In this document: piece by piece, positions 5,236 to 30,547 of the stretch
How positions within the stretch are numbered: position 1 is the first letter of the stretch
How the letters are laid out: each line of letters opens with the position of its first letter
Virus record (IMG/VR): IMGVR_UViG_3300007539_000018
Span: 2,180 to 66,179 of that record
Reading direction: 5' to 3' (one strand)
From: a virus
Lineage: Duplodnaviria > Caudoviricetes
Length of the DNA: 64,000 nucleotides
The notes under the pieces: generated by a model
What the model saw: the letters and a program-made list of their open reading frames with translations, nothing else
Database searches by the model: none
What the model was told of the DNA's origin: nothing
Made by a program: the position numbers and the translations under genes

Positions 5236-5239
5236 TGCT

Positions 5240-5833
5240 ATGTCTGTATTAGCATTAGATATTGAGACTAAAAACATGTCTCACGAAATAGGCGGCTTTG
5301 GCAATACCCATATGTTTCAAGTATCAACCGTCGCAACTTGGGATGGTAATACAGGAACAGTTTATGTTGATGAACCAGTTGATACTTTTGCTAAAAGCGG
5401 TCATATTGTTAAATCATTACAAGAACTAAAATATGATTTAGACGACCACTTTCAAAAGGGCGGTAAATTACTTGGGCATAACATTGTAGCGTTTGATTTG
5501 CCTATACTTAGAGACTCTATGGACATTTACTGTATTCACAAGTATTTGAACAACGACCAATACATTGATACAAGTAAGGATTTGCTTAAGGGTCATGGTG
5601 AAAGGTTTCAACTTAAAAACTTAGTTAAATGTACTATGGATGACTCGAAGTTAATGGATAGCGCAGATGCACCTAAGTTATGGAAAATGGGTAAGTATGA
5701 CGAAGTAGTAGAATATTGTATGAAAGACACACAGTTAGTATATAACTTGTGGGGATATGGAAAAGAGAATGGTATTGTAAAAGCATTCTCTATTGAAAAA
5801 GAAGAATTTATAGATTTAGGAGTTGATTGGTAA
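5240..5833 (+). CDS. DEDD/RNase H-like 3'-5' exonuclease (YprB-like)
   Basis: 'LDIET', 'GHNIVAFDLP', 'EYCMKD'; likely start MSVLALDIET at 5240. Confidence 0.85.
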   Translation: MSVLALDIETKNMSHEIGGFGNTHMFQVSTVATWDGNTGTVYVDEPVDTFAKSGHIVKSLQELKYDLDDHFQKGGKLLGHNIVAFDLPILRDSMDIYCIHKYLNNDQYIDTSKDLLKGHGERFQLKNLVKCTMDDSKLMDSADAPKLWKMGKYDEVVEYCMKDTQLVYNLWGYGKENGIVKAFSIEKEEFIDLGVDW

Positions 5834-6504: not shown

Positions 6505-7407
6505 TCAAAAAGTATATCTACAAACTATTGGGCCTGTACCGCTAAGAGCATCAGCATGAACCGGTGCAACAAATAATTTTGTTCCATCGGAGTTCCAATC
6601 AAAACCTCCAATAAAAGTAGATGCCGTTGTAGAAAGTTGCCCTATATCATCATTAACGCTCATTGAACGAGCAAATGAAGCAGTTGATACATTAAAACCA
6701 GTGCTAAGGTCAAACTCGGCTATTTTAGGATGATTTGCACTTGCCGAAGCAGGATTACCTGCCGAGTTTCTGTAAGAGATAAACATTTTAGTTCCGGCAG
6801 GATTGAATCGAATACCAGTATAGTTGGTTATATTGTCGCCGTCATCATCTGTTGTTGAACTCAAATTATTAGTTGTTTTACTACCGGCACTTAAATCCCA
6901 TGCGGTGTTTAGAGTAAGCGTAATTACTGAACTACCATCTGCTACAAACAATTTAGTTCCTGTGTCGTTAAACGCTAAACCCTGCGCCCCCGAACTATAC
7001 AAAGAAGAATTGACAGTTTGGGTTGAACCAGTAGTACCAATATCATATGCCGTTGAAAGAGCATAACGCACGATATTAGTAGAAGCATTTGTTCCACCAA
7101 TATAGATATAATTTCCGCTATCACCAAACACTAATGCTCTACTGCTATTGTTACCTATACTAAGTGTATCATCTGCTGATGAAAAACTAGGAACGGCACT
7201 ATCATCAAAACTATATGACTTAATAGATGATGCTGAATAAACCGCTAAAAGTAGTTCATCCGGCCCATTTACTAATTCAGTAAGGATAGTACCAGTTACC
7301 GAACCAGTGCTTGAAAGTGCAATACCATCTAAAGTATAAGCGGGTGCTGTTGTAGCATTAGCCTTTTGTTCAGCACAAGAACCTGCAATAGCATTATACA
7401 AACTCAT
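6505..7407 (-). CDS. beta-propeller tail/receptor-binding protein
   Basis: Repeats 'F.d.GtK.fv' with 'LSTAYDI/LNTAWDL/LSTGFNV'; downstream of the tail fibre. Confidence 0.65.
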   Translation of the reverse strand: MSLYNAIAGSCAEQKANATTAPAYTLDGIALSSTGSVTGTILTELVNGPDELLLAVYSASSIKSYSFDDSAVPSFSSADDTLSIGNNSSRALVFGDSGNYIYIGGTNASTNIVRYALSTAYDIGTTGSTQTVNSSLYSSGAQGLAFNDTGTKLFVADGSSVITLTLNTAWDLSAGSKTTNNLSSTTDDDGDNITNYTGIRFNPAGTKMFISYRNSAGNPASASANHPKIAEFDLSTGFNVSTASFARSMSVNDDIGQLSTTASTFIGGFDWNSDGTKLFVAPVHADALSGTGPIVCRYTF

Positions 7408-9330: not shown

Positions 9331-9678
9331 TTATTCTACCTCCATAATAAAAAAGAGTTCTAAATTTTCTGTTGTTGAAAAAGGCCCTAGTCCATCAAAA
9401 TTATGTCGGACTAATAAATTACCTGCTGAATCAAATATCCCTGCTTCTCTAATAACTGAATTTGACATCCCTGAAGCATTTCCAGAAATACTTAAGTGGA
9501 CTTCTATTACATTTTCATCTGATACAGTAGCCGAAAAAGAAACACTTGTTCCTAAATCTACATCTAATCCTGTTTGGGTAGAATATGTTGAGTTACCACC
9601 CAAGCCTATTTTACCATTATTGGCTAAACTACTTTGTATATGAGTTGCGATTAATTGTTTCATTTTGTCAGTTATCAA
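9331..9678 (-). CDS. small tail-tip/fibre-attachment protein
   Basis: 'IREAGIFDSAGNLL' resembles tail-fibre N-terminal (DUF3751-like) domains. Confidence 0.6.
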   Translation of the reverse strand: MITDKMKQLIATHIQSSLANNGKIGLGGNSTYSTQTGLDVDLGTSVSFSATVSDENVIEVHLSISGNASGMSNSVIREAGIFDSAGNLLVRHNFDGLGPFSTTENLELFFIMEVE

Positions 9679-12600
9679 AATTCTTCCTCCAATAGAGTTG
9701 TTGTTGTGCCGCCCGCCCCTACAAACCCAAGTGTGTAAGTACTTGTATTTAAAGGCCCGCCAAATCCTAATTTAGTGCCATCTATTGATGACCGCTTTTG
9801 AGCCACAAACTTAATTAATTTAAGATTAATGTCATCTAGGAAACTTAATTCTATGTTATCTGGAATTTCTTCGGAATTCTCTTCTTCTATCTGTTGTTGT
9901 TTAATTTGTATTTCAGCAAACCTATCTTCTAATTGCTTACTATATCTGCCTAATTCTAAAGTTATCATTCCTCTCATACTGTGAGTTATTTGAAGTACTA
10001 AAAATTCAGAAAATTCAATATTTTCTTTGGGAAAATCTAATGTAACAATATCTCCTGCCCTTAGTTGTCCTAATCCTTTGTGTCCAACCTGTACACTGAC
10101 TTTAAAGTTAAACTTGCCATGCAATTTTAATAATTCACTTGCTCTAGAATTAACTTCTTCTTGAGTAACAAGTTGCCTATCTGTTTCTCTCAATGATTTT
10201 ACTCCTACTTTCTTGACGCTTCTAAGGTCTTTTCTTGTTCCTTTGTGGCTTTTACCTACTACTGTAACTGTATTAGCAAAACTATACATAGTTTTTAATT
10301 TTTGAATTCTAAATATATCTATATTGGTGTTTCTTGTTCCTATAATAAGACTTGGGAAGTTTGAAACAGTATTCTTATCTACAATGGTTAAAGTACCATT
10401 GACCTCTAATAGTGATTTATTTTTCTTACTCATAATAAACTTAATTGCTTGGAATAAATTAACACCCTTAAAGTTTGGTGCTAAGAAGAAAGGATAATCT
10501 GCATTCTTACTTAGAGAAAAATCAATATTATTTTCTTGTAGCATTTCTTCTATTAAATCATCTGCTTCTCTACAAATAGTAACTTCCGAACCTATTATTG
10601 CTCTTTTAGCAGAAGAACTTACATCCCCTTCTACCTTTAGTTCAATTAGTTCAGAAAAAGAAGGTATGCCTAACATTGTTTCTTGTTCGGAAATAGACAT
10701 ATAATATCCAATGCTTGTACTGTCTTTGGTAAAAGTAACACCAGTAACATTAAAGTTTTCCCCATCAGCAATACATAAAGTTTCTTTAGATGATTTATCA
10801 TCCTTTATATTCCAAATAGCATCTAATTTATCAGGTGTTCTTATTACCACATGGTCGGAAGAAGAAACATCATTAGGGTCAGCAATAACATACATAGATA
10901 ATACTGCTTCTCCTTCACCCGCTAATGTTCTTTTACCCGAACCTCCATTAACAAAGTAACTGTTTGGACTATCATACATAGAATTAGAATAAGGTTTCTT
11001 AGTATATCGAGAAGACATTTCGTTAAGTTTAATATCGCTTGGGCTAAAATCATACAGGCAAGTATGGTTTGGTTGTAATATTCTATAAAAAGTATCTGCG
11101 GCTACTAATGTATCATCAAGCGTAAGTATGTGAGTTTTAGTATTATTAGAAATATCTAATTCATGGGAAATAACATATAATAGTTTGTCCGGTGTCATAC
11201 CGTTCAAACTTTCCCCATCTGAATGTGTACCTAAAGAAATAGTGTCGGAATCATTTTGTAAGTATTTTCCGTTTTCTGGGGCTAAATAACACCCAGTCAA
11301 ATCAACAAAATCTAAAAAGGGTTGGTTGTTTGTTTCTATTGATACTCTTACAATAGTAGTATTATTTGGCCCTTTATCAGTTCCCATCAAATCATTAGTA
11401 TTGTGTATTTTAAGTAGTGGCTTAAATCCAAAAATTACTCCATCAGCGTCAGTTGCTAAATTACTTCTAACCGTACCGGTATCTTTTAGACTAGCATATA
11501 CACCATTTAATGCAATTCCATATAATGAAAATTCGTCTTCTACTGTTCTATGGCTAATTCCGTTTATTCTTGGGCAACACATTCCAGTATCAGCATTGGC
11601 TGTTGTTCCATCTTCTATATTAAATCTATCGAAAATAACAGGCATAAAATTAGTATAAGTTAATTCTCCGGTTGTATAGCCACTTGCCCCAAAATTATTT
11701 CCTTCGTTTAATCCTCTTAAGAAACCAGCCCTTAATCTTTCTAAAACTAAAGACGGTTGCCCACCACCTGCCCCTTTTGCTGCCTTTGAGTCAGAGTCAA
11801 TATCAATAGGTAGCCATAGATTAGGTTGCCTCGAATTGTTGTTTATTGTTCCCGCTAATGTATTGTTACTATATTTGGTATAAAAATCACTACCTGATTT
11901 ACCGTATGTATTAGTGGTAACATCTGTCATTATTGCACTTTTTAATAGGTGAATATCTTCATCAAAATTAATAAATGTGTCTTGTTTTCCGTGTCCTTTT
12001 ATTGGCCCAACTCCACCATCGGCATTAGTTAATTGCTCAACAGGAATAAAATATAATTGCGTATCTGTTCCCGAAGAAGCAACATAATGTTGTGCTACAT
12101 TACTAGTATCTCTATATGTTTTAAATATTGCACTATCACAAGTAATGTCAGTGGTAGAGACACTAGAAACAATTCCCATAAACCTACCTGCTCCATCTAC
12201 TATGACATCATTTGCCGAAAGATTATCGGGAGAAATACTACATCGTATAACATTAGAGGAAGGTATAGAACGAGCATAAACTGGATTTGTATTATTCGTA
12301 ACGCTACTTTTTCCATGAACAGCATATTGAAAACTAGGCACTACTCTTTTTCTACTTGGTGGGTTTTCAGGGTCAAATTGATTAAATGCAAAATCATAGA
12401 CAACTTCAGTTAATCTCATTAAAGAAAAATTAGTAAAGGTAGTATTTTCCGAACCTACTGATTTACTAGATGATTTTATTTTAGCAAAAGTGTGAGAAGA
12501 ATCATTAGAAGATATTCTTGTAGTTTCACCTAAAACATTAGTTTTAGTATCAAATGAATCCGTTATGATAGGTTCATCAATTAACATTATGCTATACTCA

Positions 12601-15600
12601 CTTAAATCCCTAGTATTATTTGGATTAAATAGACTGTCTATTCTACTTCCAGAATAAGGTAACAAATCACAATTAGAAAATAAAAACATTCTAGATACTT
12701 TAGGGTCTTTATTGTCTAAAACATCTTCAGCGATATAAGGGCTTCTACCTAAAGAGGTATCTGAGTATAATGTTGGATTTGGGGGAATATAAATACTATC
12801 AGTAGCAGTACTTATACCTTTACTAAATCTGACTTCGTTTAAATATCTTGAGCCTAAAACCGAATCAAATCCCCTAGATTCGATTAAAGTATGCCCTTCT
12901 GAATTAGAGCCTGAATCAGTAAAGTTTGGCATTGTTGCCCCTACTCCAATAATATTATCATTTAATATTCCATCAACATAAAATCCCGGATTAAACCTAT
13001 ATGCAGTAGAATAGTATTTCACTTTACTTAATTTTTCACCATAAAAATTATATTCTTCCGACTCAGTAAATCCTGTAATGCTTGAATTCACTAAATTAAA
13101 ATTACCTTTTTCTATACTAATTAGCCTATAGTATGGACTACCAAACTTGTGAGCATAAGAAGACTTACCTAAATCACTATCATAACTCAATGGATAGTCA
13201 AAAACGCTTAATGTATTATCTGAAACTATGTTAGTATCAGGAGTATTAGCAGCACCGATTGTTGGGTGAAGTAATGCGACCATTTTTCCTGTATGTAAAT
13301 GACCTGCATTCAAAAAGTTCAATTCGTGAGTTTTTTTAGATGATTCCCTAGTAGTTTCATCAACATTTAATATTGTTACTTCTGAATCTGCCGCTACATT
13401 TTTTATTTTTCTATCTAAATATAATGTAGTATAAGTGCCGCTATTAGAAGCACCAACAAAAAATCCAGCAAATGTTCCATCTACATAAATTGGACTTCCA
13501 TAGTGCCTTCTTTGAGTATCTATTCCACCTAAAGCAACATGATAGCCACTTAAACTAGATGTTAATGAATTTTGAGGTGTTGAGCCAATAGCATTACAAG
13601 TCATTAAAATAGCAGTAGATATGTTAGTATCTAGTTGATTAGCGTAATTTATATCTACTCTACCTAAAGTCAAAGGAACATAAGGTGCTATTATAACGCT
13701 AGTATCAAATTTATTTCTTTTTATGCTAATTACAGTAAAATCAATAAGAGTATTGATTGTATCGAAGTCTGCATGGGTGGTGTGAGTAATGTTATCTAAT
13801 CTAGCCTGAAATGCTGAATCGCTTTTCATTTTAGTTGCAGAACTTAGGTAGTACCCTCTCGCTTCTAAATTAGTTGATAAAGAAGTAGAAACCAAAGAAG
13901 ATGATTCGCTACCATCTTGCGCTGCTCCTGTTCCTAATCCAGCAACTCTTATATCTTTACCACTATTAAAATATAATCCTTTATTTGAAACTCCGTCTAA
14001 ACTTGATGTAGACTCGACTAATGAATTTGAGGCTAACGCTTTATTCATTATATAGTTTTTACTGGATGACTTGTATAAAGTTACAGTTCCTTCTGTTCTT
14101 GGAAATTCTCCTATTACTACTGTGTTTGCAGAAGAAGTAGCAACTGTGGTTTTACCAATATAAGAAAGCATACCATTATCATATTTACCAAATAATATAG
14201 TACCTGCCGGTATAGTTGCAGTAGCAGCATTTGTTATATCCGCTGCTGTTTTTAGATTAATTGTTTTACTAGAAGCATCAAATGTTATTACCGCTTTTAT
14301 TTCGTTATCGGAAGTGTCTAAAAGAGTAGCCAAATTATTATATGGGCTATTGCTAGAATAAATAACATCTTTAGTAAATAAAGTATTTTTATCAACAATA
14401 TTAGAAACAAGAATTCTTGATTTGCTGTTGGCAACAATTTTCATAACATTAGTATTAGATTCTATATCGTTTTCTGTACTTTCTATTTCTCCATTTAATT
14501 TTTCTATTTCAATAGAATAAGCACCTATTGCTGAACGGAGAGCATTATTAAAACTATACGAAGAATTATTAAAATCAAGCGTCAAAAGTTTTTTATTAGC
14601 ATCCGAAGAAATAACCTTTGCTTCAAGAGATTCTAAATTAGCATTACCCAATGATACATATAGCACTGACTCTCTACCGTCTATGATTGGATAATCAGTA
14701 AGTAGTGTCTTATCAGTTTGATTATATGCCCTGCGGTAAATAATATCATTTACAGATAAACTGTATGAAGTTGTTGTAAATGCAGATTCTTTTTCTAATC
14801 TTGTAAAGTCTTCAAATGTTATATCTTGAGAAAATGCAGAATAAGAATCTATTGTTTTAACTATAAGTATTCTATCACCTACCTTTACTTCATCCCCCAC
14901 ATTTAAGAAAGAAGAAACATCAAATTCAGTTCTAAGAGTATATTCTGGGTGAGAAGTAATATCTGTAATTTTAAGAGGTAAAGGCATCCAACCGAAAAAG
15001 TCTGCCCTGTGTACTTGGTGTCTAATTTTTATTGGAGAAAAGTCTCCTATTTTTGTACTTAACATTCTTGAAGAATCAATTATAGTAAGTTCTGCATATC
15101 CTCCCCTTGCTCCTATGGATTCTTCAATAAAACAATCAATAGTATTTTCTGTGGAGTTTGAAATAGTGGGCGAATAATCATAATATAAATATCTTTTAGG
15201 GCCAGTATAGTCAGGTGTAGAAAAGTTTGCACTATCGGATTCTACATCTTCTCCTTCGGAATCTCTCCTAGCGTTAATAAAAGCAGAATCTCTAACAAAT
15301 GGATTAAATGTATCTGGAGTAACACCTTCATTACTTGTGTGGGTTAATGGGCTATCTTGGTCTTTTAATCTATCAATTAATTGAACCACCATAGAAAACC
15401 TACTATTGTCTATTACACTTGTACCAAATTCGGGAATTGTTGTAAAGTAACTATCTGAAGAAATAGTTGCAGAAGTAGTGCCAGTATTAAATTTAATTGC
15501 ATATTTTTCATTGTGATTTAGTTGATTTTTTTCAGTTAAATGTTCATTAAAGAAATAAAACAAAGGTCTAGCACAGATTAGAGAATCATTTAACGATGAT

Positions 15601-16517
15601 TTTATTCCTGCCGAAATAGCATGTGGGTAAATGTATGTATTTTTTGGGAAAGAATAAAGTTTAAATTTAACTCCAATTGGTATTTCATTACCTAATTTTG
15701 GCTCAAAGTCAAAAGAATCTCCCAATGAATCATCACTATGTACTTCTGTAATTCTAGCAAAATGATGTTTTAAATAATTGTCCGAGTGAATAAGTACAAA
15801 ATAATAATTATCAGTATTATTATTTACTTCATCTCTTTGAGTTGTACTAAAATTAAATCCAGTACTAGAATCATCACTATGGCATTTTATTCTAAATCCA
15901 CTTGTGGTTTCTAAGTTTGATAGTTGTTGCCCCAATATAAGAGTAGCATTAGTATTTGTTGACAATGCACCATTATTAGTATTTATTATAGTAGAAGAAA
16001 TTATTCTATTAATAATAGTATTATCTGGAAAATTGTTAGCAGTAGTCTGAATAGACTGACCTATGAACATTCCCGAACTAGAACTTACAGTAACAGTATG
16101 TCCACCATCCACAGTAGTTTGAAAACTAGCCCCACTTAATGTAGTAACATTTAATGCAGTAAAAGTAGGTTGGAGTTCAGTATTGAAAGAATTAGGATAA
16201 ATAGCAGTAAAGTTATCATTTAAAGTAGCGGCTTCAATTACTTTAAATTTAGGATTAGTTGGGCAATTATAGGCTACTTTCTCAAAAGTCCTAGTTGTGG
16301 TGCTTGAATCACTAGCACTAGCACTAAGCGTAACTGTTGTTGAAGTTGCTATTGCTGTAATTCTAGTTAATGCGGGGATTCCATCACCTGACACTATCAT
16401 ACCTACCCAAAGTTTACTAACATTATCGGAACTTAATGTTAATGTAGTGCTACCAGCAGTTGTACTAGAAAGAGTCAAAGTTGAAGGACTTCGAGAAATA
16501 GCCAGTATTTTTGTCAT
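9675..16517 (-). CDS. very large tail-tip/baseplate hub protein (2280 aa)
   Basis: S/T-rich beta-structured protein after the tape measure and distal tail genes; C-terminal hub-like segment 'ANTVTVVG...LRAGDIVTL...LELG'. Confidence 0.7.
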   Translation of the reverse strand: MTKILAISRSPSTLTLSSTTAGSTTLTLSSDNVSKLWVGMIVSGDGIPALTRITAIATSTTVTLSASASDSSTTTRTFEKVAYNCPTNPKFKVIEAATLNDNFTAIYPNSFNTELQPTFTALNVTTLSGASFQTTVDGGHTVTVSSSSGMFIGQSIQTTANNFPDNTIINRIISSTIINTNNGALSTNTNATLILGQQLSNLETTSGFRIKCHSDDSSTGFNFSTTQRDEVNNNTDNYYFVLIHSDNYLKHHFARITEVHSDDSLGDSFDFEPKLGNEIPIGVKFKLYSFPKNTYIYPHAISAGIKSSLNDSLICARPLFYFFNEHLTEKNQLNHNEKYAIKFNTGTTSATISSDSYFTTIPEFGTSVIDNSRFSMVVQLIDRLKDQDSPLTHTSNEGVTPDTFNPFVRDSAFINARRDSEGEDVESDSANFSTPDYTGPKRYLYYDYSPTISNSTENTIDCFIEESIGARGGYAELTIIDSSRMLSTKIGDFSPIKIRHQVHRADFFGWMPLPLKITDITSHPEYTLRTEFDVSSFLNVGDEVKVGDRILIVKTIDSYSAFSQDITFEDFTRLEKESAFTTTSYSLSVNDIIYRRAYNQTDKTLLTDYPIIDGRESVLYVSLGNANLESLEAKVISSDANKKLLTLDFNNSSYSFNNALRSAIGAYSIEIEKLNGEIESTENDIESNTNVMKIVANSKSRILVSNIVDKNTLFTKDVIYSSNSPYNNLATLLDTSDNEIKAVITFDASSKTINLKTAADITNAATATIPAGTILFGKYDNGMLSYIGKTTVATSSANTVVIGEFPRTEGTVTLYKSSSKNYIMNKALASNSLVESTSSLDGVSNKGLYFNSGKDIRVAGLGTGAAQDGSESSSLVSTSLSTNLEARGYYLSSATKMKSDSAFQARLDNITHTTHADFDTINTLIDFTVISIKRNKFDTSVIIAPYVPLTLGRVDINYANQLDTNISTAILMTCNAIGSTPQNSLTSSLSGYHVALGGIDTQRRHYGSPIYVDGTFAGFFVGASNSGTYTTLYLDRKIKNVAADSEVTILNVDETTRESSKKTHELNFLNAGHLHTGKMVALLHPTIGAANTPDTNIVSDNTLSVFDYPLSYDSDLGKSSYAHKFGSPYYRLISIEKGNFNLVNSSITGFTESEEYNFYGEKLSKVKYYSTAYRFNPGFYVDGILNDNIIGVGATMPNFTDSGSNSEGHTLIESRGFDSVLGSRYLNEVRFSKGISTATDSIYIPPNPTLYSDTSLGRSPYIAEDVLDNKDPKVSRMFLFSNCDLLPYSGSRIDSLFNPNNTRDLSEYSIMLIDEPIITDSFDTKTNVLGETTRISSNDSSHTFAKIKSSSKSVGSENTTFTNFSLMRLTEVVYDFAFNQFDPENPPSRKRVVPSFQYAVHGKSSVTNNTNPVYARSIPSSNVIRCSISPDNLSANDVIVDGAGRFMGIVSSVSTTDITCDSAIFKTYRDTSNVAQHYVASSGTDTQLYFIPVEQLTNADGGVGPIKGHGKQDTFINFDEDIHLLKSAIMTDVTTNTYGKSGSDFYTKYSNNTLAGTINNNSRQPNLWLPIDIDSDSKAAKGAGGGQPSLVLERLRAGFLRGLNEGNNFGASGYTTGELTYTNFMPVIFDRFNIEDGTTANADTGMCCPRINGISHRTVEDEFSLYGIALNGVYASLKDTGTVRSNLATDADGVIFGFKPLLKIHNTNDLMGTDKGPNNTTIVRVSIETNNQPFLDFVDLTGCYLAPENGKYLQNDSDTISLGTHSDGESLNGMTPDKLLYVISHELDISNNTKTHILTLDDTLVAADTFYRILQPNHTCLYDFSPSDIKLNEMSSRYTKKPYSNSMYDSPNSYFVNGGSGKRTLAGEGEAVLSMYVIADPNDVSSSDHVVIRTPDKLDAIWNIKDDKSSKETLCIADGENFNVTGVTFTKDSTSIGYYMSISEQETMLGIPSFSELIELKVEGDVSSSAKRAIIGSEVTICREADDLIEEMLQENNIDFSLSKNADYPFFLAPNFKGVNLFQAIKFIMSKKNKSLLEVNGTLTIVDKNTVSNFPSLIIGTRNTNIDIFRIQKLKTMYSFANTVTVVGKSHKGTRKDLRSVKKVGVKSLRETDRQLVTQEEVNSRASELLKLHGKFNFKVSVQVGHKGLGQLRAGDIVTLDFPKENIEFSEFLVLQITHSMRGMITLELGRYSKQLEDRFAEIQIKQQQIEEENSEEIPDNIELSFLDDINLKLIKFVAQKRSSIDGTKLGFGGPLNTSTYTLGFVGAGGTTTTLLEEEF

Positions 16518-18544: not shown

Positions 18545-20839
18545 TCAAATTAAATTACCAAATGGCATTTGCCGATTAAGTTTATTACCAATCATCTTTC
18601 CTAATTGTTGTGCTACTCTTCTCATTTCGGCATCGGAAGTGTCTTTAGCGTTAATAGTAATATTAAAAATGTTGGTGCTTCCACCCATCATTCTCTTAGA
18701 TTGTGAATTAGAATAGATTTTAGAACCTGCATTTAATTGTAGTAATTCCGGCCCTTGTTCTCCAACGAGAGACAATCCACCATGAGAAGTTCCTCCTTTG
18801 GCAAATCTTCCTTTAATTCCTAGTGTTCCGAATACTCCTTCATTTTCTAAAGAATCTCTAAATTTGTTATACCTATCTCTTGTTTTCTTTGAAGGGCTTA
18901 AGAAGTCTCTTATCGAAGTAGCCAAAGTAATTAACTTTCCACCTGCGGCTTCTATTCCGGCCAAGAGTTTTTCTTTATTCATTTCTATACTTAATGATTG
19001 CCGGACTGCATCAAGCATTTCTCTAAAACCAAATATTATATCATCTTTAGTTTTTATCAAAAAGTTAATGGAATCATTATATATTGTTTCAGCATAATGT
19101 TGTAGTCCGTAAAAGAAATTATTTATGTAGTCTTCTACATTTTGGAATTTTTCATCAAAATTATCATTTAACCAATAACCTACTGTAAATAAGGCCGCTA
19201 ATACTGCAACACCAATTAGTATAGGTAATGCTGCGGCAGCAGCGAGAGATAGTGCTAAACCAATTAAAAATTGTATTACTATCAAAGCAACTACAACAAG
19301 AGCAACCTTCATAAGAATATCAGTTACTCTTCTTCTAAATTCGGGGTCTTTATAGAACTTATATGCGGCATCCATCAATAAATCAAATCCTGCAACCATC
19401 GCTAAGAATCCTGCTTCTAATAAAATCTTTCCGGTTTTAATAAGAACAGCAATTCCTTTATCTACAAATTTTCCGGCATAATCTAATGCTTTTTCATAGT
19501 CTCCATTTAGGAAAGCAGAAACCATTTTCCAACCAACTTTAAGCCAATCGAACACCATAATACCTAATACTTTAATGTCATCAATTACACCAAACTCTTC
19601 CAAAATCTCATAGTATCTTTTCAAGTAGATTAATATAACAAAGAATGCTGCTATTGCCAACATTGACATAACTAAGTATTTAAATACCATAGACATGATA
19701 GGTTGAAGGCTCATTGTAAACTTTCGCATTTTTGCTCTAAACTTAATTGCACCAGTAGAAAAAGGATTGAAGGCAGTATAGATTAATTTAGTGGATTTAG
19801 TAACTAGTAGTAGCGGTGCTAAAAGCATCTTTGCGCTTTTTAAGTTATCAGTTACTCCTTTTGCATTTGCTCTTGCCGCATCTTTTCTTACTGCTCTACC
19901 TACTTTCAACTGGTCTTTCTTTTGAGAAAATCTTTCACTAAGACCGCCAGTAATTGAAGCCATTCTTTTACCAAAAAAACCTTTACCTTTTTCTTCGGCT
20001 TTTACTCTCGCTAGTTTTTTTGCTTCTTTTACTCTATTACTATCAAAAGCATACGCCATTTTTGCATTCTTTTTAAGTGCTAATCTTTCTTCATCTAAGA
20101 GTTTATTTCTTTCATGGAAAAATTTTATAGAACGCTGCATGGCTCTTTCTTCATCACCAGTTGCTAATAAAACCTTTTGATAAGCAGCCGTATTAGTTAA
20201 TGCTTCTTTTGTTTCCTCACTAACTTCACTTGTTAATTTAGCAATATCAGCAAGTCTTTTACTACGGTTTGCTATAATTTTATTATTGGCTTCTGTTTCT
20301 TTATTTAATTTTTTTATGAGTTTAGCATGCATTTTTGTAGAAATGGTACTTTTACCCGTAGCAGCATTTACTCTAAGTAAATCATCATTATATGAATTTG
20401 CCAATGTTAAATTTTTTAAATTTTGGGCTTCTGCTTTTTTCTTTTCTGCTGTCAATTGTGCTGTCAATTTCTTGTCTTCAACACCATACTTAATTAAATT
20501 TTTAGAATTAGCATATATAGATTTCATTTGTTTATCTACTTTATCATAGCCTTTTATTTTTTTTAATAACGCTGCGGATTCTTCCTCATGTGCCTTAGCA
20601 TTTGCGTTTGAGCGATTTTCAAAACCAGCCAAAATAGAAAGATATGCTCTTATTTTGTTTTGTGTACTCCATAAAGGAGTACCTGAAACTAAACGACTAA
20701 ATGTAGTCCAAGCCTTACCTGCGCCTTCTGTACTTGCAGCAGCAGAAGTAAGAGTTTTAGTTAATCCCTTAAACTCAATACCTGCTTTAATTGTTCCAGT
20801 CCTTAGAGTATCTAGGGAATCAATAACATCTTGAGCCAT
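18545..20839 (-). CDS. tail tape measure protein
   Basis: Long helical/coiled-coil protein with hydrophobic segments and C-terminal 'FAKGG...LVGEQGPEL'; follows the chaperone pair. Confidence 0.85.
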   Translation of the reverse strand: MAQDVIDSLDTLRTGTIKAGIEFKGLTKTLTSAAASTEGAGKAWTTFSRLVSGTPLWSTQNKIRAYLSILAGFENRSNANAKAHEEESAALLKKIKGYDKVDKQMKSIYANSKNLIKYGVEDKKLTAQLTAEKKKAEAQNLKNLTLANSYNDDLLRVNAATGKSTISTKMHAKLIKKLNKETEANNKIIANRSKRLADIAKLTSEVSEETKEALTNTAAYQKVLLATGDEERAMQRSIKFFHERNKLLDEERLALKKNAKMAYAFDSNRVKEAKKLARVKAEEKGKGFFGKRMASITGGLSERFSQKKDQLKVGRAVRKDAARANAKGVTDNLKSAKMLLAPLLLVTKSTKLIYTAFNPFSTGAIKFRAKMRKFTMSLQPIMSMVFKYLVMSMLAIAAFFVILIYLKRYYEILEEFGVIDDIKVLGIMVFDWLKVGWKMVSAFLNGDYEKALDYAGKFVDKGIAVLIKTGKILLEAGFLAMVAGFDLLMDAAYKFYKDPEFRRRVTDILMKVALVVVALIVIQFLIGLALSLAAAAALPILIGVAVLAALFTVGYWLNDNFDEKFQNVEDYINNFFYGLQHYAETIYNDSINFLIKTKDDIIFGFREMLDAVRQSLSIEMNKEKLLAGIEAAGGKLITLATSIRDFLSPSKKTRDRYNKFRDSLENEGVFGTLGIKGRFAKGGTSHGGLSLVGEQGPELLQLNAGSKIYSNSQSKRMMGGSTNIFNITINAKDTSDAEMRRVAQQLGKMIGNKLNRQMPFGNLI

Positions 20840-25688: not shown

Positions 25689-27626
25689 TTATGCTAATGA
25701 GTTCTCTAAAGTCTTAAATGCTCTTTTAGTTGAGTCTATAAATGATTTTACGGATTTAATATCCCCGCTATTGTATTTTTGCCCATAAACAGACCTTTGT
25801 TTATCTTTAGTGTCAAGCCCAATATTTGCGGCTTTTGTTTCTATTCTATGAGTAGCATTGACTAAGGAAGGAGATTGAAAAGTGTAAGTAGTGGTCGCCT
25901 TTTTTTTCTGCTTATCCATTATTTCGTTTCCCTTTTTGTCTTTCTTTCCAGTTTTATATTCCACATATTTAGTTATAATTTTCTCTATTTTTATTTCTAT
26001 TTCGTATAAAGCCCCATAGTCTCTAAGGGCTTCTGAAAAAGTAGATTTTATATACGGTTTCAACTTCCTTTTAAATGCTTCTTTTGCATCTTTATTGCTA
26101 AAAGCAGTCGAAGTAACAGTAACATTAGTTTTTTCTTTTAAATCTTCTAGTTTTGATTGTACATATTCATCCATTGGGTCAGTAACACTTTCTTTTCGCC
26201 ATTGTTTAAGTTTTTCTATTTCTGACTTCATCCATGATTTGAGATTTTTTACCTCACCAATATATGTTTTATAAAAGGCTTTACCTTCTTTCCTAGAATC
26301 GCTTAACGCTTTAATTCTTTTTACTACTTTTAACATTTCGGTATTAGCAACCATATTAAGAAGAGTTACTTTTTTTCCATCTACTATCCCTAAATCATTA
26401 ATACGATTAAAGTTAGGAAGAATGTATTCTCCCCTAGAGACTATTTTTTTTCTTGTGCCTTTTGGTTTTTCAATTGTCTTTTTTTCACCAGTTTTAGTTT
26501 TATAAGTAACTTTATTTTCTCTCCATTTTGGATTTTGAGGTTTTCCGAATGGAGAGAAAAATTGATTTATTATTTTTTGTTCTTCTTTATTGTATTGAGT
26601 TTCAAATTTATCTGCTGTTTGTATTTTTCCAACCGTTAATTCGGCATCTATCACTTTTAGTTTATTAGAATACAGCATAATATATGAAGATATTGTATCA
26701 TTTAATTTGGAATTGGTTAATCCTGTCATTTTTGTAGCATCTAGAGATAATCCACCACTAAACTTAGCACTTAATACTTCTTTATTTGGGGTTTTGTTTA
26801 AAAATTGAGTTTCAAATATATTGGAGGTTTGATTTCCAGAATTATAATTTTCAGCAGTTAAAGAACCCCCCGATATTTCCTGCCCTCTATAACTATCTTG
26901 TTTTTTGTCTTTGATAGAAGTAGTTTCAATTCCACCTCTTCCTTTTCTTTTGACAGAACGAGATTCCATCAAAGAAATAGGGGCATATCCTAATTCTTTA
27001 AGGTAAGCAATCTTGCTATTAGGCATAGGGTTTTCAGGATTATTAAAATCTAGTTCTTTAAATCGTATAGAGCGTAACTCAACAATAGTTACTTTTCCTT
27101 TTTTCCCTTGTATTTTGTCTGGGCCTAAAACATTTACTTCGGTACTACTACCCTTTTTTTTACCGATATATTTACTGTATTCTTGGAATTTTTTATCGGG
27201 CATCCCTTTTCTTTTTTCATCTTTTGCTTCTTTAGAAGTATCAGGATTGTTTAAGGTAAGAGAAAGATTACTATTTAAATCTTTAACAGTGAAGTTACCC
27301 TTAGTGTTTTTTAGTCGCTCTAATGCTTTTTTCCCAGAACTACTCAATTCTATATTATGGGTAGCAATTATTTCTTCAAGGGGAGTGGTTTCTATTGAAG
27401 TTATTGCTGAATTATATATTTTAATGTATTGGTTTTTGTTTTTACCTTCCCAATTTAATATATTAACTTGTTCCATTTCATCTAAAGATAACAATTGTGC
27501 TATCTTCCTATGTGATTTATCTTTATTTACTAAATACCCACGAAGTAAAAACAGAACCATTTCTTTTTCAATAGTATTTTTATCTAAAGAAATTTCTTGG
27601 CCCGTTCTTGAGTATTTGATTTGCAA
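25689..27626 (-). CDS. Lys-rich hypothetical protein (645 aa)
   Basis: Long ORF with TTG start; no recognised motif. Confidence 0.7.
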   Translation of the reverse strand: MQIKYSRTGQEISLDKNTIEKEMVLFLLRGYLVNKDKSHRKIAQLLSLDEMEQVNILNWEGKNKNQYIKIYNSAITSIETTPLEEIIATHNIELSSSGKKALERLKNTKGNFTVKDLNSNLSLTLNNPDTSKEAKDEKRKGMPDKKFQEYSKYIGKKKGSSTEVNVLGPDKIQGKKGKVTIVELRSIRFKELDFNNPENPMPNSKIAYLKELGYAPISLMESRSVKRKGRGGIETTSIKDKKQDSYRGQEISGGSLTAENYNSGNQTSNIFETQFLNKTPNKEVLSAKFSGGLSLDATKMTGLTNSKLNDTISSYIMLYSNKLKVIDAELTVGKIQTADKFETQYNKEEQKIINQFFSPFGKPQNPKWRENKVTYKTKTGEKKTIEKPKGTRKKIVSRGEYILPNFNRINDLGIVDGKKVTLLNMVANTEMLKVVKRIKALSDSRKEGKAFYKTYIGEVKNLKSWMKSEIEKLKQWRKESVTDPMDEYVQSKLEDLKEKTNVTVTSTAFSNKDAKEAFKRKLKPYIKSTFSEALRDYGALYEIEIKIEKIITKYVEYKTGKKDKKGNEIMDKQKKKATTTYTFQSPSLVNATHRIETKAANIGLDTKDKQRSVYGQKYNSGDIKSVKSFIDSTKRAFKTLENSLA

Positions 27627-27637
27627 GGCTAATCAAC

Positions 27638-28303
27638 TCACATTAACCATTTAGCCCAAGCCGCACCTTTTTGAATGGCTGAACCTAAATGTAATCCGCT
27701 TGAAGGTGGCTCATAACTCATTTGATTTTGAGCATCAATCCAATATGGCCTTCCATATCCGTCTGTTCCCGATGGGGGAATAGGATAACCCGAACCATTA
27801 TTTACAGCCCCTTGCATTTGTTGGTATTGTTGTGTTTGTCCGGTTAATCCGGCCATAGCCATACCTGCTGTTGGCCCTGCGGGGTTCATTCCTCCCATGT
27901 TTCCACCTCCGCCAAATCCTTGAGATTCGAGATATTGTTGCTTCGCAAGTTTGCGTTGATTTACTACTTCTGAGTTAATGGCTGATTGAAGAATCCTTTG
28001 AATATCTAAATCAATGTTCTCTTGAGTGATTCTTTCGTACTCCCTCATAGCATCTGCATCAATGGTTATTTTTGAACCAGTAGTGCTAAAAGATAATTTT
28101 GCTAGCATTTGGCTAACTACTCTCTCTACTACATCTTCCATTAATTTCTCAAATGTAGTTAAAAATTGCTCGCCGTGATATTGAAAAAATTCTTCAACAT
28201 GATTATCCTGTAAAGATAATAAGTTATTCACATTTTTAAACTGTTGGTCGTTTTGTGCCTGTACTGCACCCATAACTGCTTTATTGCTTGTTCCAAATAC
28301 CAT
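27638..28303 (-). CDS. helical protein with Gly/Gln-rich linker and C-terminal amphipathic helix
   Basis: Ends 'AIQKGAAWAKWLM'; last gene of the GTPase block. Confidence 0.7.
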   Translation of the reverse strand: MVFGTSNKAVMGAVQAQNDQQFKNVNNLLSLQDNHVEEFFQYHGEQFLTTFEKLMEDVVERVVSQMLAKLSFSTTGSKITIDADAMREYERITQENIDLDIQRILQSAINSEVVNQRKLAKQQYLESQGFGGGGNMGGMNPAGPTAGMAMAGLTGQTQQYQQMQGAVNNGSGYPIPPSGTDGYGRPYWIDAQNQMSYEPPSSGLHLGSAIQKGAAWAKWLM

Positions 28304-28305
28304 GA

Positions 28306-28935
28306 TTATTCCTCTCCTTTACTATTAGTTACCATTGATTGTAGTCTCTTGGTATTAGTCTCTATCTCGGCTATTAGGCGAATTACTTCCGCCATCTCGC
28401 TCTCATTATCCTTGACAACGGGGGGCGTTATAATCCATCCGGTTGATGTCAGCGACAAAACATCTTCTCTCGATAATGTTTGTAATGGGCCACTCTTTAG
28501 CATTTGTGGCACTTTAGGTCTAGGAATGAATGCTTTGAAATCTAATCCATGTTCGTCTGCTAATATCTGTTGTTGTAACATCTCCATTTGTTTATGAAGA
28601 CTAGCATGTTTAGGACAATAAGTTCCTCTCATCGGTCTTCCTTTAGTAACATTATCTAATGGAATAGGTGGGCGCAAATAGTCTCCTGCTTCCCAAATAT
28701 GGTGCATTCCACAAACGACGCATCTATCCTTTAGGTTAAACTTATATCCATACTTTACAATAAATTTTTTCTTCTCAGGTAGTAATACTTTTTTAATCTC
28801 TTTTAATTGCTTCTTAGGTTTTAATGCAGTAAAAGAGTATTCTGCGATAGAACCTGCGGCCCTAAACTGTTGTAGTTTAGGTAAAAATATATTCTTTGCT
28901 TGTGGGCTATTTATTAAATTCGGTTGTTGATACAT
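28306..28935 (-). CDS. zinc-finger + coiled-coil protein
   Basis: CVVC...YCPKH; C-terminal heptad helix. Confidence 0.7.
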   Translation of the reverse strand: MYQQPNLINSPQAKNIFLPKLQQFRAAGSIAEYSFTALKPKKQLKEIKKVLLPEKKKFIVKYGYKFNLKDRCVVCGMHHIWEAGDYLRPPIPLDNVTKGRPMRGTYCPKHASLHKQMEMLQQQILADEHGLDFKAFIPRPKVPQMLKSGPLQTLSREDVLSLTSTGWIITPPVVKDNESEMAEVIRLIAEIETNTKRLQSMVTNSKGEE

Positions 28936-28944
28936 AGTTATTCC

Positions 28945-29613
28945 TCAGTAATCTTTTATTAGAGTTGTAATTCCTTTGTAAACCATTTCGGGGTCTGACT
29001 TTGCCGAAACAATATATTTGAATGTGGGTATTCCTTTATCATTTAATTGTCTCATTCCATACTTAAATGGTTCGTAAATATCATGCTTATCAATTGATTG
29101 TCCTTCTCTTAGTGGGTATTTTTCTCCCCATATATCATATTTATTTGCCCAAATACTTACTGCCATAGGATAATCTACTTCTTTTTTTCTTTTACCATTA
29201 GGCCAAACATTAGATGTAATTGTATCTACTAAAAATTTCCATGCTAATTGGTGGTCTAAGTTGGATGGTGAGTCTAAATGCCTGTGGTCTATCATAAAAA
29301 TAACATATTTTACTTTACGAGTTCTCATATCTTTAACCCATTCTTTCCAATACATCGCTTCTCCGCCAATGTCTGCACTTTTTAATGTGTGAGAATCTCC
29401 ATCAAACTTAACTACTTTTCTACTCGCTCTTTCCAAACCAACTGTTCTTTTATTAATTTGTTGGACTTCTCCTCTTGTTCTTAATTGGTAACTTAATGTT
29501 GTTTTACCAACCATAGTAGCCCCATAAACTCCAAAATTAATAGCATGTACTCTTTTATAAAAGGCTACTACTGCTTCTGTAATCAAGATGGCAAATCCTG
29601 CCATTACTGACAT
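28945..29613 (-). CDS. Ras-superfamily small GTPase (Arf/Sar-like)
   Basis: G1 GATMVGKTT, G2 RTVG, G3 DIGGE, G4 ANKYD, G5 SAK; hydrophobic N-terminal helix. Confidence 0.9.
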   Translation of the reverse strand: MSVMAGFAILITEAVVAFYKRVHAINFGVYGATMVGKTTLSYQLRTRGEVQQINKRTVGLERASRKVVKFDGDSHTLKSADIGGEAMYWKEWVKDMRTRKVKYVIFMIDHRHLDSPSNLDHQLAWKFLVDTITSNVWPNGKRKKEVDYPMAVSIWANKYDIWGEKYPLREGQSIDKHDIYEPFKYGMRQLNDKGIPTFKYIVSAKSDPEMVYKGITTLIKDY

Positions 29614-29835
29614 TTAATGACCTCCAAATATAGACTTAAAAAAGGAAATCAAAGAACCCATAATATTGACATCGAAGACACCCATTATGTTTCCTATAAG
29701 TAATGCTGATAATGTGGCACAACTGCCCCAAAACCATGCTCTCATTCTCATAAAAAAAATATCAGCAGAATGCGCCCTTGATTGATTGTATGCGTAATCC
29801 GAGTCGGAGAATCCCATTATGTCTCCAAGAACCAA
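29614..29835 (-). CDS. small membrane protein (73 aa)
   Basis: Hydrophobic 'AWFWGSCATLSALLIGNIMGVF'; GAGGTGA RBS with TTG start. Confidence 0.7.
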   Translation of the reverse strand: MVLGDIMGFSDSDYAYNQSRAHSADIFFMRMRAWFWGSCATLSALLIGNIMGVFDVNIMGSLISFFKSIFGGH

Positions 29836-29845
29836 TTAAATCACC

Positions 29846-30259
29846 TCATTGTTGAATAGTAGCCAAAAACTCGTTTGGTATTTGACTCTCTTCAAATGAA
29901 GCGGTTGAATTTTCGGGATAAACATTGTTCCATGAATCCCGCTTATTTACTCCGTATTGTTTCATGCTTTCACGAAGTTTTTGTTTAATTTGTTGTTCTC
30001 TAGCAACCCTTTGAAAATGTGCTTCAATTTGCCTATCTAGTAATTTAATTTCAATTCTATCGTTAAGAGATAAGTCGAATAGTGCTTTCATAACCATAAT
30101 GCCACCAACTGTAATCAGCCCAAATAAGACCGAGTGTGCTAATGGGCCATAAGGAAAATTAAGACCATATGCTGAATAGAAATAAACATTTGCCCCACTG
30201 ACTGTTCCGACAAATAAAATTGTCATAACTAATCGAGTATCGTTATTTAATGCCGCCAT
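29846..30259 (-). CDS. two-TM membrane protein with coiled-coil tail
   Basis: Two hydrophobic segments followed by a charged helix; GAGGTGA RBS. Confidence 0.75.
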   Translation of the reverse strand: MAALNNDTRLVMTILFVGTVSGANVYFYSAYGLNFPYGPLAHSVLFGLITVGGIMVMKALFDLSLNDRIEIKLLDRQIEAHFQRVAREQQIKQKLRESMKQYGVNKRDSWNNVYPENSTASFEESQIPNEFLATIQQ

Positions 30260-30268
30260 TAAATCACC

Positions 30269-30547
30269 TCAAGCAAACTCAATAGACACGGCTACTGCAC
30301 CACTGACTTCTTCAAAGTATAAGCCATTAGTGCATAATACACCATGCATGTCAAATTCAACCGTTTGATTAGCAGATAAAGTCATTCTTGCGATTTCTTT
30401 ACCACTAGCGGCTGTATTGTCATATACTTTAATTACTGCCGCTGAACCACCGACTTCTGTTGCATGAATGCTAATTAGTTTAACTTGGCCTGTTACAACC
30501 AATTTATTTTCTGTTAAAACACCGCTACTTCTACAACCTGCCGCCAT
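30269..30547 (-). CDS. small beta-rich virion protein (92 aa)
   Basis: 'IKVYDNTAASG...GVLCTNGLY' pattern seen in small phage structural proteins. Confidence 0.55.
   Translation of the reverse strand: MAAGCRSSGVLTENKLVVTGQVKLISIHATEVGGSAAVIKVYDNTAASGKEIARMTLSANQTVEFDMHGVLCTNGLYFEEVSGAVAVSIEFA

What the first reader, a model, noticed from the sequence alone, without database searches (positions are those of the whole stretch)
27638..30259. Five-gene block with an Arf/Sar-like small GTPase and membrane proteins inside the virion module
Seen: a complete G1-G5 small GTPase (GATMVGKTT, RTVG, DIGGE..YW, ANKYD, SAK) with a hydrophobic N-terminal helix. It is tightly coupled to a 2-TM coiled-coil protein, a small TM protein, a Zn-finger/coiled-coil protein and a protein ending in an amphipathic helix (AIQKGAAWAKWLM). 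Established: DxGGQ..W plus an N-terminal amphipathic helix characterises membrane-remodelling Arf/Sar1 GTPases, and small GTPases are rare in tailed viruses. No endolysin or holin is recognisable in the window. Inference: a GTPase-timed membrane-remodelling module for lysis/egress, or for a membrane-bound assembly site, in a host without peptidoglycan.
Basis: partly seen in the sequence, partly recalled or inferred. Interest (0 to 1): 0.85.

Follow-up and report, generated by a model that had tools for sequence, protein, structure and literature searches.

The report
Arf-like GTPase membrane module in magroviruses
A very abundant group of marine archaeal viruses carries a conserved five-gene set built around a membrane-anchored switch protein of the Arf type, which may be how these viruses reshape or break the host membrane, a step nobody has yet explained for tailed archaeal viruses.

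The parts
29846..30259 (-). Gene 1: 137-aa membrane protein with two hydrophobic segments (10-28 weak, 38-65), then a charged, Q/R/K/E-rich helical tail
   Evidence: ORF; hydropathy. A positional family of the same architecture occurs in all magrovirus groups examined (alignment A5; HMM hits).
29614..29835 (-). Gene 2: 73-aa protein with one hydrophobic segment (about 38-63). Its stop codon directly abuts the GTPase start.
   Evidence: family alignment A6; always immediately upstream of the GTPase or separated only by an inserted ORF.
28945..29613 (-). Gene 3: 222-aa Arf-like small GTPase
29548..29613 (-). GTPase residues 1-22: hydrophobic N-terminal helix followed by basic residues (YKR); putative membrane anchor
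   Evidence: KD 1.86 over residues 1-20; Eisenberg mean H 0.71 and muH 0.19; modelled as a helix at 4-22 with pLDDT 66-74.
29500..29523 (-). G1 / P-loop GATMVGKT (res 31-38)
   Evidence: G31, G36, K37, T38, T39 at least 90% conserved.
29338..29373 (-). G3 / switch II DIGGEAMYWKEW (res 81-92), with the family-wide Trp seven residues after the catalytic position
   Evidence: D81 and G84 invariant, W92 at least 90% conserved; W at +7 in 153 of 153 copies where the motif was matched.
29134..29145 (-). G4 NKYD (res 157-160)
   Evidence: N157, K158 and D160 at least 90% conserved in A1.
28999..29007 (-). G5 SAK (res 203-205)
29182..29193 (-). Polybasic insert KRKK (res 141-144) in a loop before strand beta5. 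A basic cluster is present at this place in 15 of the 17 members of A1 that span it.
   Evidence: Read from alignment A1, columns about 196-210. A role in lipid binding is inference.
28306..28935 (-). Gene 4: 209-aa Cys/His (Zn-type) protein with a C-terminal long helix
   Evidence: C72, G76, G99, T105, C107, P150 invariant; H110 at least 90%. It lies directly downstream of the GTPase in distant groups (68 of 84 by tblastn; all by HMM). The AF2 model is poor (pLDDT 60.5).
28606..28722 (-). Putative Zn-binding residues C72, C75 ... C107, H110 of gene 4
   Evidence: Alignment A3. Metal binding itself is inferred.
27638..28303 (-). Gene 5: 221-aa protein with a conserved core of about 110 aa flanked by Q/G/M-rich low-complexity regions. 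Its C-terminus AIQKGAAWAKWLM occurs only in the window's group.
   Evidence: 72-97% identical within the group; homologue two genes downstream of the GTPase in all groups.

Best explanation
The block is a conserved, virus-specific membrane module of magroviruses, built around a divergent Arf-like small GTPase. SHOWN: the GTPase has an intact nucleotide-binding site and an Arf/Arl-like fold. It carries a hydrophobic N-terminal helix. It is always flanked upstream by two small membrane proteins and downstream by a Cys/His protein and a Q/G/M-rich protein, and the five genes travel together. INFERRED: the N-terminal helix, perhaps helped by the polybasic loop, holds the GTPase at the cytoplasmic face of the host membrane next to the two membrane proteins. 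GTP binding and hydrolysis switch the assembly. The Zn-type protein may act as regulator or effector, as ArfGAP zinc fingers and ArvC do, and the low-complexity protein may act as an effector or scaffold. The module is transcribed with the late structural genes. Its output is probably local remodelling or rupture of the host membrane at the end of infection. That would make it an egress device for a host with only a membrane and an S-layer, with the holin-shaped 137-aa protein as the likely membrane-active component.
Against: There is no experimental or direct computational evidence of membrane binding, GTP hydrolysis or protein contacts. The four partner families have no recognisable domain (Pfam, PHROGs, NCBIfam, Atlas). 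The Zn-protein model is poor (pLDDT 60.5). The catalytic position is variable (E/Q/D/H), so intrinsic hydrolysis may be weak or partner-dependent. The N-terminal segment is only moderately hydrophobic in distant members (mean H 0.29-0.58 in most of them). Position inside the structural module fits a morphogenetic or virion role equally well. The contig is only about 72% complete, so another egress system could lie in the missing part. Holin-like architecture is generic. No fused forms were found (weak evidence).
Confidence: 0.4

Rival explanations
1. Non-lytic membrane remodelling. The module buds vesicles or builds a membrane-bound platform or compartment for replication or virion assembly. 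It would work like the cellular ArvA-ArvB-ArvC vesiculation system or an Arf/Sar1-coat system rather than rupturing the cell.
For: Arf/Arl-like fold and motifs. GTPase followed by a Zn-type protein, as in arvA...arvC. Membrane proteins adjacent. ArvA overexpression increases vesiculation (PMC10927574).
Against: No Pfam OapC match in the genome. No OapB, OapC or SepF-type hit in 27 gene-4 or 26 gene-5 family members at E<=1. Tailed virions need no envelope. The single-sequence search of 1.84 billion representatives gave only 64 relatives and no large archaeal cellular family such as the 1,666 ArvA homologues described in the paper (the paper).
Confidence: 0.2
2. Virion morphogenesis or entry. 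The five proteins are assembly factors or virion-carried ejection proteins that form a channel through the host envelope at infection, as the P22 or T7 ejection proteins do. They would be encoded where head-completion and ejection genes usually sit.
For: In the window's group the block lies between the MCP/small head genes and the tail genes. Gene 5 has a very weak PHROG hit to a 'virion structural protein' (E 0.026). Hydrophobic segments also occur in ejection and tape-measure proteins (for example window 18545-20839).
Against: In other magrovirus groups the block is not between head and tail genes. A nucleotide-switch protein with an N-terminal anchor is an odd capsid cargo.
Confidence: 0.15
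3. Host takeover or exclusion. A membrane-anchored GTPase complex blocks superinfection, modifies transport or the cell envelope, or counters a host defence, without any role in egress.
For: Membrane location is inferred. Variable genes are inserted between module genes in some genomes, as in accessory regions. The neighbouring gene 25689-27626 is hypervariable (27-86% identity).
Against: Conservation is extreme (GTPase 78-96% identical, at or above the MCP in the more diverged loci). All five genes are present in every group examined. This fits a core function better than an accessory one.
Confidence: 0.1

Closest known systems
Eukaryotic Arf/Arl/Sar1 GTPases and Asgard archaeal ArfR proteins (e.g. 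PDB 8oum GerdArfR1, 8ouk HodArfR1)
   Different: Below the Pfam Arf gathering score (16.8 vs 22.3 bits); only 12 of 50 family members reach E<=0.01. Rab33B scores equally by profile (2.7e-9) and Rab1 leads Foldseek's E-value ranking. The catalytic Gln is Glu in the window's group. The N-terminal helix is hydrophobic rather than amphipathic. About 40 extra residues include a polybasic insert. No phylogeny was made because no reference sequences could be obtained.
ArvA-ArvB-ArvC (OapA/B/C) vesiculation operon of Haloferax volcanii and other Euryarchaeota/DPANN (PMC10927574)
   Same: An Arf-like small GTPase with an N-terminal helix, in an operon with conserved small partners including a Zn-ribbon protein, acting on the cytoplasmic membrane of an archaeon (paper passages; window genes).
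   Different: No sequence link was found. PF09845 (OapC) has no match in the genome. No OapB or OapC hit in any member of the gene-4 or gene-5 families. The GTPase search gave no large archaeal cellular family. The viral module has two or three extra membrane proteins. ArvA itself could not be compared directly.
SR-beta (signal recognition particle receptor beta subunit)
   Same: An Arf-related GTPase held in the membrane by an N-terminal hydrophobic anchor (architecture recalled). Weak Pfam SRPRB hits: E 0.086 for the window protein and 8 of 50 members at E<=0.01.
   Different: Hits are far below threshold (12.7 vs 25 bits). There is no SR-alpha-like partner. SR-beta is eukaryotic.
Phage holin/antiholin lysis cassettes embedded in late operons
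   Same: Small late-strand membrane proteins, one with two hydrophobic segments and a highly charged C-terminal tail, as the egress review describes for holins. The position between head and tail genes recalls the P2 lysis cassette (recalled, not tested).
   Different: No holin family hit. No endolysin partner. No known holin system includes a GTPase.

Membership tests
Ras-superfamily (TRAFAC) small GTPase | G1 GxxxxGK[ST], G2 Thr, G3 DxxG, G4 NKxD, G5 SAx motifs | tested here: met
   All five are present in the window protein. D81 and G84 are invariant and the P-loop is at least 90% conserved in 50 sequences. NKxD is at least 90% conserved in A1. P-loop plus NKxD found in 160 of 163 locus copies.
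Ras-superfamily (TRAFAC) small GTPase | Six-stranded alpha/beta G-domain fold | tested here: met
Ras-superfamily (TRAFAC) small GTPase | Curated family model above its cut-off | tested here: not met
   Pfam Arf 16.8 bits (cut-off 22.3), MMR_HSR1 16.7 (21.9), Ras 16.2 (21.6). NCBIfam small_GTP 21.6 (42.5).
Arf/Arl/Sar family | GKTT P-loop and DxGGQ/H followed by Trp at +7 (switch II) | tested here: inconclusive
   GKTT is at least 90% conserved. Trp at +7 in 153 of 153 matched copies. The catalytic position is E in 79 of 79 close copies. In distant copies it is Q 52, E 12, D 6, H 4, with 10 unmatched. That these motifs define Arf is recalled knowledge.
Arf/Arl/Sar family | N-terminal amphipathic helix coupled to the nucleotide switch | tested here: inconclusive
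   A helix is present, but it is hydrophobic with a low moment: mean H 0.71 and muH 0.19 in the window; mean H 0.29-0.79 and muH 0.05-0.48 across all 19 members scored. Coupling to the switch is not testable here.
Arf/Arl/Sar family | Closest structures are Arf-family members | tested here: met
   VIA rows 1-36 are all Arf/Arl. No Ras or Rab appears in the 50 rows shown. Foldseek's E-value order puts Rab1 first, but the highest TM-scores are to Arf6 (0.78-0.79). Rows within 1 Z unit are ties.
Arf/Arl/Sar family | Phylogenetic placement inside the Arf clade | not tested
   No reference GTPase sequences could be obtained.
ArvA-ArvB-ArvC vesiculation system | ArvC: DUF2072/OapC Zn-ribbon domain (PF09845) | tested here: not met
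   No PF09845 match in the six-frame genome. No hit in the 27 gene-4 family members at E<=1.
ArvA-ArvB-ArvC vesiculation system | ArvB: DUF2073 / SepF-like protein directly downstream of the GTPase | tested here: not met
   No such Pfam hit in the 27 (A3) or 26 (A4) family members at E<=1.
ArvA-ArvB-ArvC vesiculation system | GTPase orthologous to ArvA | not testable with these tools
   No ArvA sequence was available. Indirectly, phmmer over 1.84 billion representatives gave only 64 hits, all unnamed metagenomic proteins.
Holin (class II-like) | Small protein with one or more TM segments and a charged hydrophilic C-terminus, next to an endolysin | tested here: inconclusive
   The architecture is met for the 137-aa protein. 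There is no holin family hit and no endolysin in the window.

The most novel reading that the evidence does not exclude
Magroviruses, and perhaps other tailed archaeal viruses, leave their S-layer-only hosts by a GTP-switched device. A membrane-anchored viral Arf-like GTPase would control when two small viral membrane proteins and two soluble partners open or vesiculate the host membrane. That would be a lysis or egress system with no counterpart among phage holin-endolysin systems. It would also be a virus-borne relative of the Arf/ArvA membrane-deforming machinery outside eukaryotes and Asgard archaea.
Probability: 0.3. Interest if true: 0.9.

Novelty: new variant of a known kind. Interest (0 to 1): 0.72.

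Why it matters
[quoted passage not shown] The review of archaeal virus egress (PMC10791045) states that the players of tailed-virus egress are completely uncharacterized. This block is a core, strongly conserved five-gene membrane module with a nucleotide switch, which makes it a concrete and testable candidate for that missing step. It also extends Arf-like membrane GTPases to viruses of Thermoplasmatota-type archaea, alongside the recently found ArvA vesiculation GTPase. The module is small (2.6 kb) and can be tested by heterologous expression even though neither the virus nor its host is cultured.

Tried and rejected
Single-sequence phmmer of the GTPase against PDB gave only non-significant KRas hits (E 0.16). 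The profile search was needed.

PHROGs gave nothing meaningful for any of the five proteins (best E 0.018). NCBIfam gave only sub-threshold small_GTP.

The ESM Atlas look-ups for genes 4 and 5 returned unnamed viral clusters at scores of 0.82-0.86, within the chance range the tool states.

The AF2 model of gene 4 was too poor (pLDDT 60.5) to search with, so no fold search was run on it.

The co-fold of GTPase and gene 4 (collected) gave 'no answer' (score 0.00, mark 0.32). It is neither support nor evidence against binding.

An idea that gene 5 resembles ESCRT-III came from the MG[LIF]FG N-terminus in most groups, a resemblance I recalled. It was dropped: no Snf7 or other ESCRT hit at E<=1 in 26 members.

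A search for fused forms ('longer') found none, which is weak evidence.

blastn and tblastn against the 'phages' collection found nothing. The tool warns that records near the window's genome may be left out.

Context of the most distant GTPase relatives (P0160, P0143, P0184, P0134) could not be obtained. Scans of viral contigs and metagenome contigs found no locus. A profile of five distant members found only 6 proteins and no bridge to a cellular family.

The genome-contig scan gave one 12.2-kb contig in a MAG labelled Maricaulis. Its contig length and range are those of IMG/VR locus L074. I take it to be a mis-binned viral contig, not a bacterial homologue.

RNA evidence: contigs from four metatranscriptome runs of one study cover pieces of the block and of its neighbours at 90-100% likeness. 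The tool notes that DNA can be present in such libraries and that contigs show neither strand nor level. I count this only as 'present in RNA libraries', not as shown transcription. Parts without cover mean nothing.

Literature: 'magrovirus'+'GTPase' returned 0 papers. 'Poseidoniales'+'virus'+'GTPase' returned 3 unrelated papers (listing only). 'GTP' occurs 0 times in the main texts of PMC5434244, PMC11706807, PMC10160649, PMC10768690 and PMC5332604 (find mode). Zhou et al. 2023 (Environ Microbiol), which describes YSH_150918, is not held. Supplementary tables are closed and may contain an annotation of this gene. Some JGI records already carry the automatic name 'GTPase SAR1 family protein'.
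Full report
WHAT THE WINDOW IS

The minus strand carries a tailed-virus late region. It includes terminase (Terminase_6C, weak), portal (Phage_portal, 1.1e-10), an ATP-dependent DNA ligase, a prohead protease (Peptidase_S78, 6.6e-10), an MCP (SU10_MCP 1.2e-6; phrog_24667 4.7e-22) and a tail tube (Phage_tube_2, 1.9e-11). The plus strand carries a PD-(D/E)XK nuclease and an ERCC4/HhH nuclease.

The GTPase's relatives come from marine metagenomes. One of them is 'hypothetical protein QKV95_gp088 [Poseidoniales virus YSH_150918]' at 77% identity. That virus is the exemplar of the Aoguangviridae, order Magrovirales (PMC10768690, passages read). A ligase embedded in the structural module is a published hallmark of magroviruses (PMC5434244).

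The contig is 66,179 bp and the window is 2180-66179 of it. CheckV completeness is given as 72.

THE OBSERVATION

Five ORFs lie head to tail on the minus strand with gaps of 10, 0, 9 and 2 nt. The late operon continues on both sides without larger gaps: gene 30269-30547 lies 9 nt upstream and gene 25689-27626 lies 11 nt downstream. So the block is not a separate transcription unit by spacing alone.

Hydropathy gives these segments:
- residues 1-20 of the GTPase;
- residues 10-28 (weak) and 38-65 of the 137-aa protein;
- one segment in the 73-aa protein.

These three neighbours are the only adjacent set of hydrophobic-segment proteins among 77 non-overlapping ORFs.

THE GTPASE

Curated models only graze it: Pfam Arf E 0.005, MMR_HSR1 0.0079 and Ras 0.008, all below cut-off, and NCBIfam small_GTP 1.5e-4.

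It has many close relatives. There are 388 proteins at E<=0.01, and the 120 listed are 70-93% identical. In IMG/VR, 339 of 343 pattern-matching stretches encode a relative. The family is nevertheless narrow. HMMER over 1.84 billion 50%-identity representatives found 64 at E<=1e-3 (35 at <=1e-10), many of them fragments. All ten clusters looked up are unnamed metagenomic proteins on contigs of up to about 100 kb.

Alignments of 20 and 50 members keep these positions:
- D81 and G84 invariant;
- G31, G36, K37, T38, T39, W92 and D109 at 90% or more;
- N157, K158 and D160 at 90% or more in the 20-member set.

Over the locus copies, a P-loop plus NKxD was found in 160 of 163. The residue after DxGG is E in 79 of 79 close copies. 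In distant copies it is Q in 52, E in 12, D in 6 and H in 4, and 10 were not matched by my pattern. A Trp sits seven residues further on in all 153 matched copies.

GKTT and this Trp are, from my knowledge of the families, typical of Arf/Sar/Arl (and G-alpha) rather than Ras/Rab. The G5 region (SAK.G.NV in several distant members) looks more Ras/Rab-like to me. Both of these statements are recalled, not tested.

A profile of the 50 sequences hits PDB sequences of several families at similar levels: a 'GTP-binding protein' 8oun (2.6e-9), Rab33B (2.7e-9), Arl8A (8.7e-8), Arl3, KRas, Sar1 and Arf1 (1e-6 to 1e-5). The related entry 8oum is named 'Arf GTPase from the asgard Gerdarchaea: GerdArfR1'.

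Of the 50 members scanned singly, the numbers reaching E<=0.01 were 28 for MMR_HSR1, 23 for Roc, 12 for Arf (best 1.9e-15), 10 for Ras and 8 for SRPRB. One distant member, P0174, carries precomputed Pfam hits that begin with PF00025.

I conclude that this is a divergent, virus-specific family of the Ras superfamily, nearest to the Arf/Arl/Sar branch. Formal membership is left open.

THE N-TERMINAL HELIX

On the Eisenberg scale the best 18-residue window has mean hydrophobicity 0.71 with moment 0.19 in the window protein. Across the other full-length members the values are 0.29-0.79 and 0.05-0.48. Basic residues follow (YKR, YWKPRR, YRKYKRH). This looks more like an anchor, or a helix that packs against partner membrane proteins, than the amphipathic helices of Arf/Sar1. 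The architecture is reminiscent of SR-beta (recalled).

A basic cluster (KRKK 141-144 in the window) sits in an insert before beta5 in 15 of the 17 A1 members that span it. A lipid-binding role for it is my inference.

THE BLOCK AS A UNIT

In 80 IMG/VR loci with GTPase identity of 78-96%, the order is the same wherever the contig reaches: protease, MCP, small genes, 137-aa, 73-aa, GTPase, 209-aa, 221-aa, and so on through to the tail tube.

Using distant GTPases as queries gave 84 further loci with about 26-35% GTPase identity to the window. In every one of the 83 rows in which the GTPase ORF was located, wherever the contig reaches, the neighbours have this architecture:
- a 143-272-aa protein with 1-2 hydrophobic segments and a charged/Q-rich tail;
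- a 72-99-aa protein;
- the GTPase (230-274 aa);
- a 256-357-aa protein;
- a 190-272-aa protein;
- mostly a sixth, 77-108-aa protein, most copies with two TM segments.

tblastn with the window's 209-aa protein finds the downstream gene in 68 of 84 of these loci. Profile HMMs built from my alignments of the five families found all five, in order, in 57 of 57 close and 79 of 79 distant loci that have at least 1 kb upstream and 2.1 kb downstream of the GTPase. A further 27 loci lacked room and 2 lacked a GTPase ORF hit. The HMMs include some of these same loci, so the test is partly circular for those rows.

The surroundings differ between groups. In many distant loci the block directly follows a gene of 2200-2360 aa and lies about 2 kb before the homologue of window gene 54022-54690 (29-38% identity). 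In the window that gene is about 25 kb away. The sixth small 2-TM gene has no homologue in the window's contig.

DEGREE OF CONSERVATION

In loci L021-L080 the median identities to the window are as follows:

| Gene | Median identity |
|---|---|
| GTPase | 80% |
| 221-aa | 79% |
| 73-aa | 74% |
| protease | 69% |
| MCP | 66% |
| 209-aa | 60% |
| 137-aa | 58% |

The loci were ranked by GTPase similarity, which favours the GTPase. Even so, a non-structural protein that keeps pace with or exceeds the capsid protein points to a core function.

THE PARTNERS

None of the four partners has a recognisable domain (Atlas).
- The 209-aa family keeps C72, G76, G99, T105, C107 and P150 invariant and H110 near-invariant. 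The second Cys shifts between CxxC and CxxxGC forms. That fits a small Zn-binding knuckle followed by long helices. The AF2 model is poor (pLDDT 60.5).
- The 221-aa family has a short N-terminal MG[LIF]FG-type motif in most groups (MVFG in the window). A core of about 110 residues is flanked by Q/G/M-rich low-complexity regions. The AIQKGAAWAKWLM ending exists only in the window's group, and other groups end in G/A/M-rich hydrophobic tails.
- The two membrane-protein families keep their architecture but only 11-20% identity between groups.

WHAT IT LIKELY DOES

Nothing here was measured, so this section is inference. The facts to be explained are:
- a nucleotide switch with an anchor-like helix;
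- two or three small membrane proteins always beside it;
- two soluble partners always behind it;
- late-strand location;
- core-gene conservation;
- a host without murein;
- no recognisable lysis genes among 50 window proteins scanned with Pfam.

The egress review states that tailed archaeal viruses lyse their hosts by a system whose 'main players ... are still completely uncharacterized'. It describes holins as small membrane proteins with a charged C-terminal domain (PMC10791045), and the 137-aa protein has that shape.

Mills et al. show that in Haloferax an Arf-like GTPase (ArvA) is needed for vesicle budding. Its operon partners are ArvB (DUF2073, SepF-like) and ArvC (DUF2072 Zn-ribbon), which raise or lower vesiculation, and the authors liken ArvC to ArfGAP zinc fingers (PMC10927574).

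I therefore favour a GTP-switched membrane-remodelling or membrane-disrupting module used at the end of infection (0.4). A non-lytic vesiculation or platform role comes second (0.2), a virion or entry role third (0.15) and an exclusion or takeover role fourth (0.1).

The parallel with ArvABC is functional and architectural only. PF09845 (OapC) finds nothing in the contig. No OapB or OapC hits appear in any member of the partner families. ArvA itself could not be compared.

EXPRESSION

Contigs from four metatranscriptome runs of one study match pieces of all five genes and of the flanking late genes. Examples are 27630-27792, 28459-28880, 28945-29111, 29686-29907 and 30086-30470. DNA carry-over cannot be excluded, and contigs give neither strand nor level.

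NOVELTY

The main texts of five magrovirus papers do not contain 'GTP'. Two full-text searches found nothing on a magrovirus GTPase. The paper describing YSH_150918 is not held, and supplements are closed. JGI's pipeline already names some copies 'GTPase SAR1 family protein', so the bare annotation exists in databases. The conserved five-gene module, its mobility as a unit and its possible role appear not to be in print as far as these searches reach.

TOOLS THAT WERE UNAVAILABLE

Noticed in passing
L030:5445-5996, L046:5479-5988, L066:5459-5995 and 6660-7235, L041:6666-7235, L054:6675-7139, L069:3814-4317 and 4994-5533, L015:4843-5373, L003:4226-4432: In some related genomes an extra ORF of 68-191 aa is inserted between the 73-aa gene and the GTPase, or between the GTPase and the 209-aa gene. 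The inserted proteins are unrelated to each other in their bodies, but all begin with MW(K/F/W/E/Q)(N/D/K)ILK. This is the same 'W..ILK leader' that another first-stage note describes on other genes of this window. None of the five module proteins has it.
   Followed up: partly
L081-L160, about 10.3-10.6 kb in loci where the GTPase starts at 8001 (e.g. L083:10378-10635): Other magrovirus groups carry a sixth conserved gene directly after the 221-aa homologue. It encodes a 77-108-aa protein, most copies with two TM segments, many ending in ...RQYASFRY. An HMM of 59 copies finds no homologue in the window's contig.
   Followed up: partly
window 9675-16517 (-) and L113-L153 upstream of the module: A giant ORF (2280 aa in the window; 1962-2364 aa in other groups) has no Pfam hit. 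In other magrovirus groups it lies directly upstream of the GTPase module, whereas in the window it is about 13 kb away.
   Followed up: no
window 25689-27626 (-): The K-rich 645-aa gene directly downstream of the block is hypervariable among otherwise near-identical relatives: 27-86% identity where the neighbours are 84-98%. It was not detected in the more distant loci.
   Followed up: no
window 57889-58653 (-): A 254-aa protein has a pentapeptide-repeat domain (Pfam Pentapeptide 3.3e-11). In phages such proteins are often DNA mimics or anti-defence factors (recalled).
   Followed up: no
L165 (NZMJ01000024.1, 12.2 kb): A contig binned into a MAG labelled Maricaulis sp. carries the module at 79% GTPase identity.
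   Followed up: partly
window 18545-20839 (-): A 764-aa protein downstream of the tail tube gene has three central hydrophobic segments (380-409, 471-490, 503-558) and no Pfam hit. It is a likely tape-measure protein, by position only.
   Followed up: no
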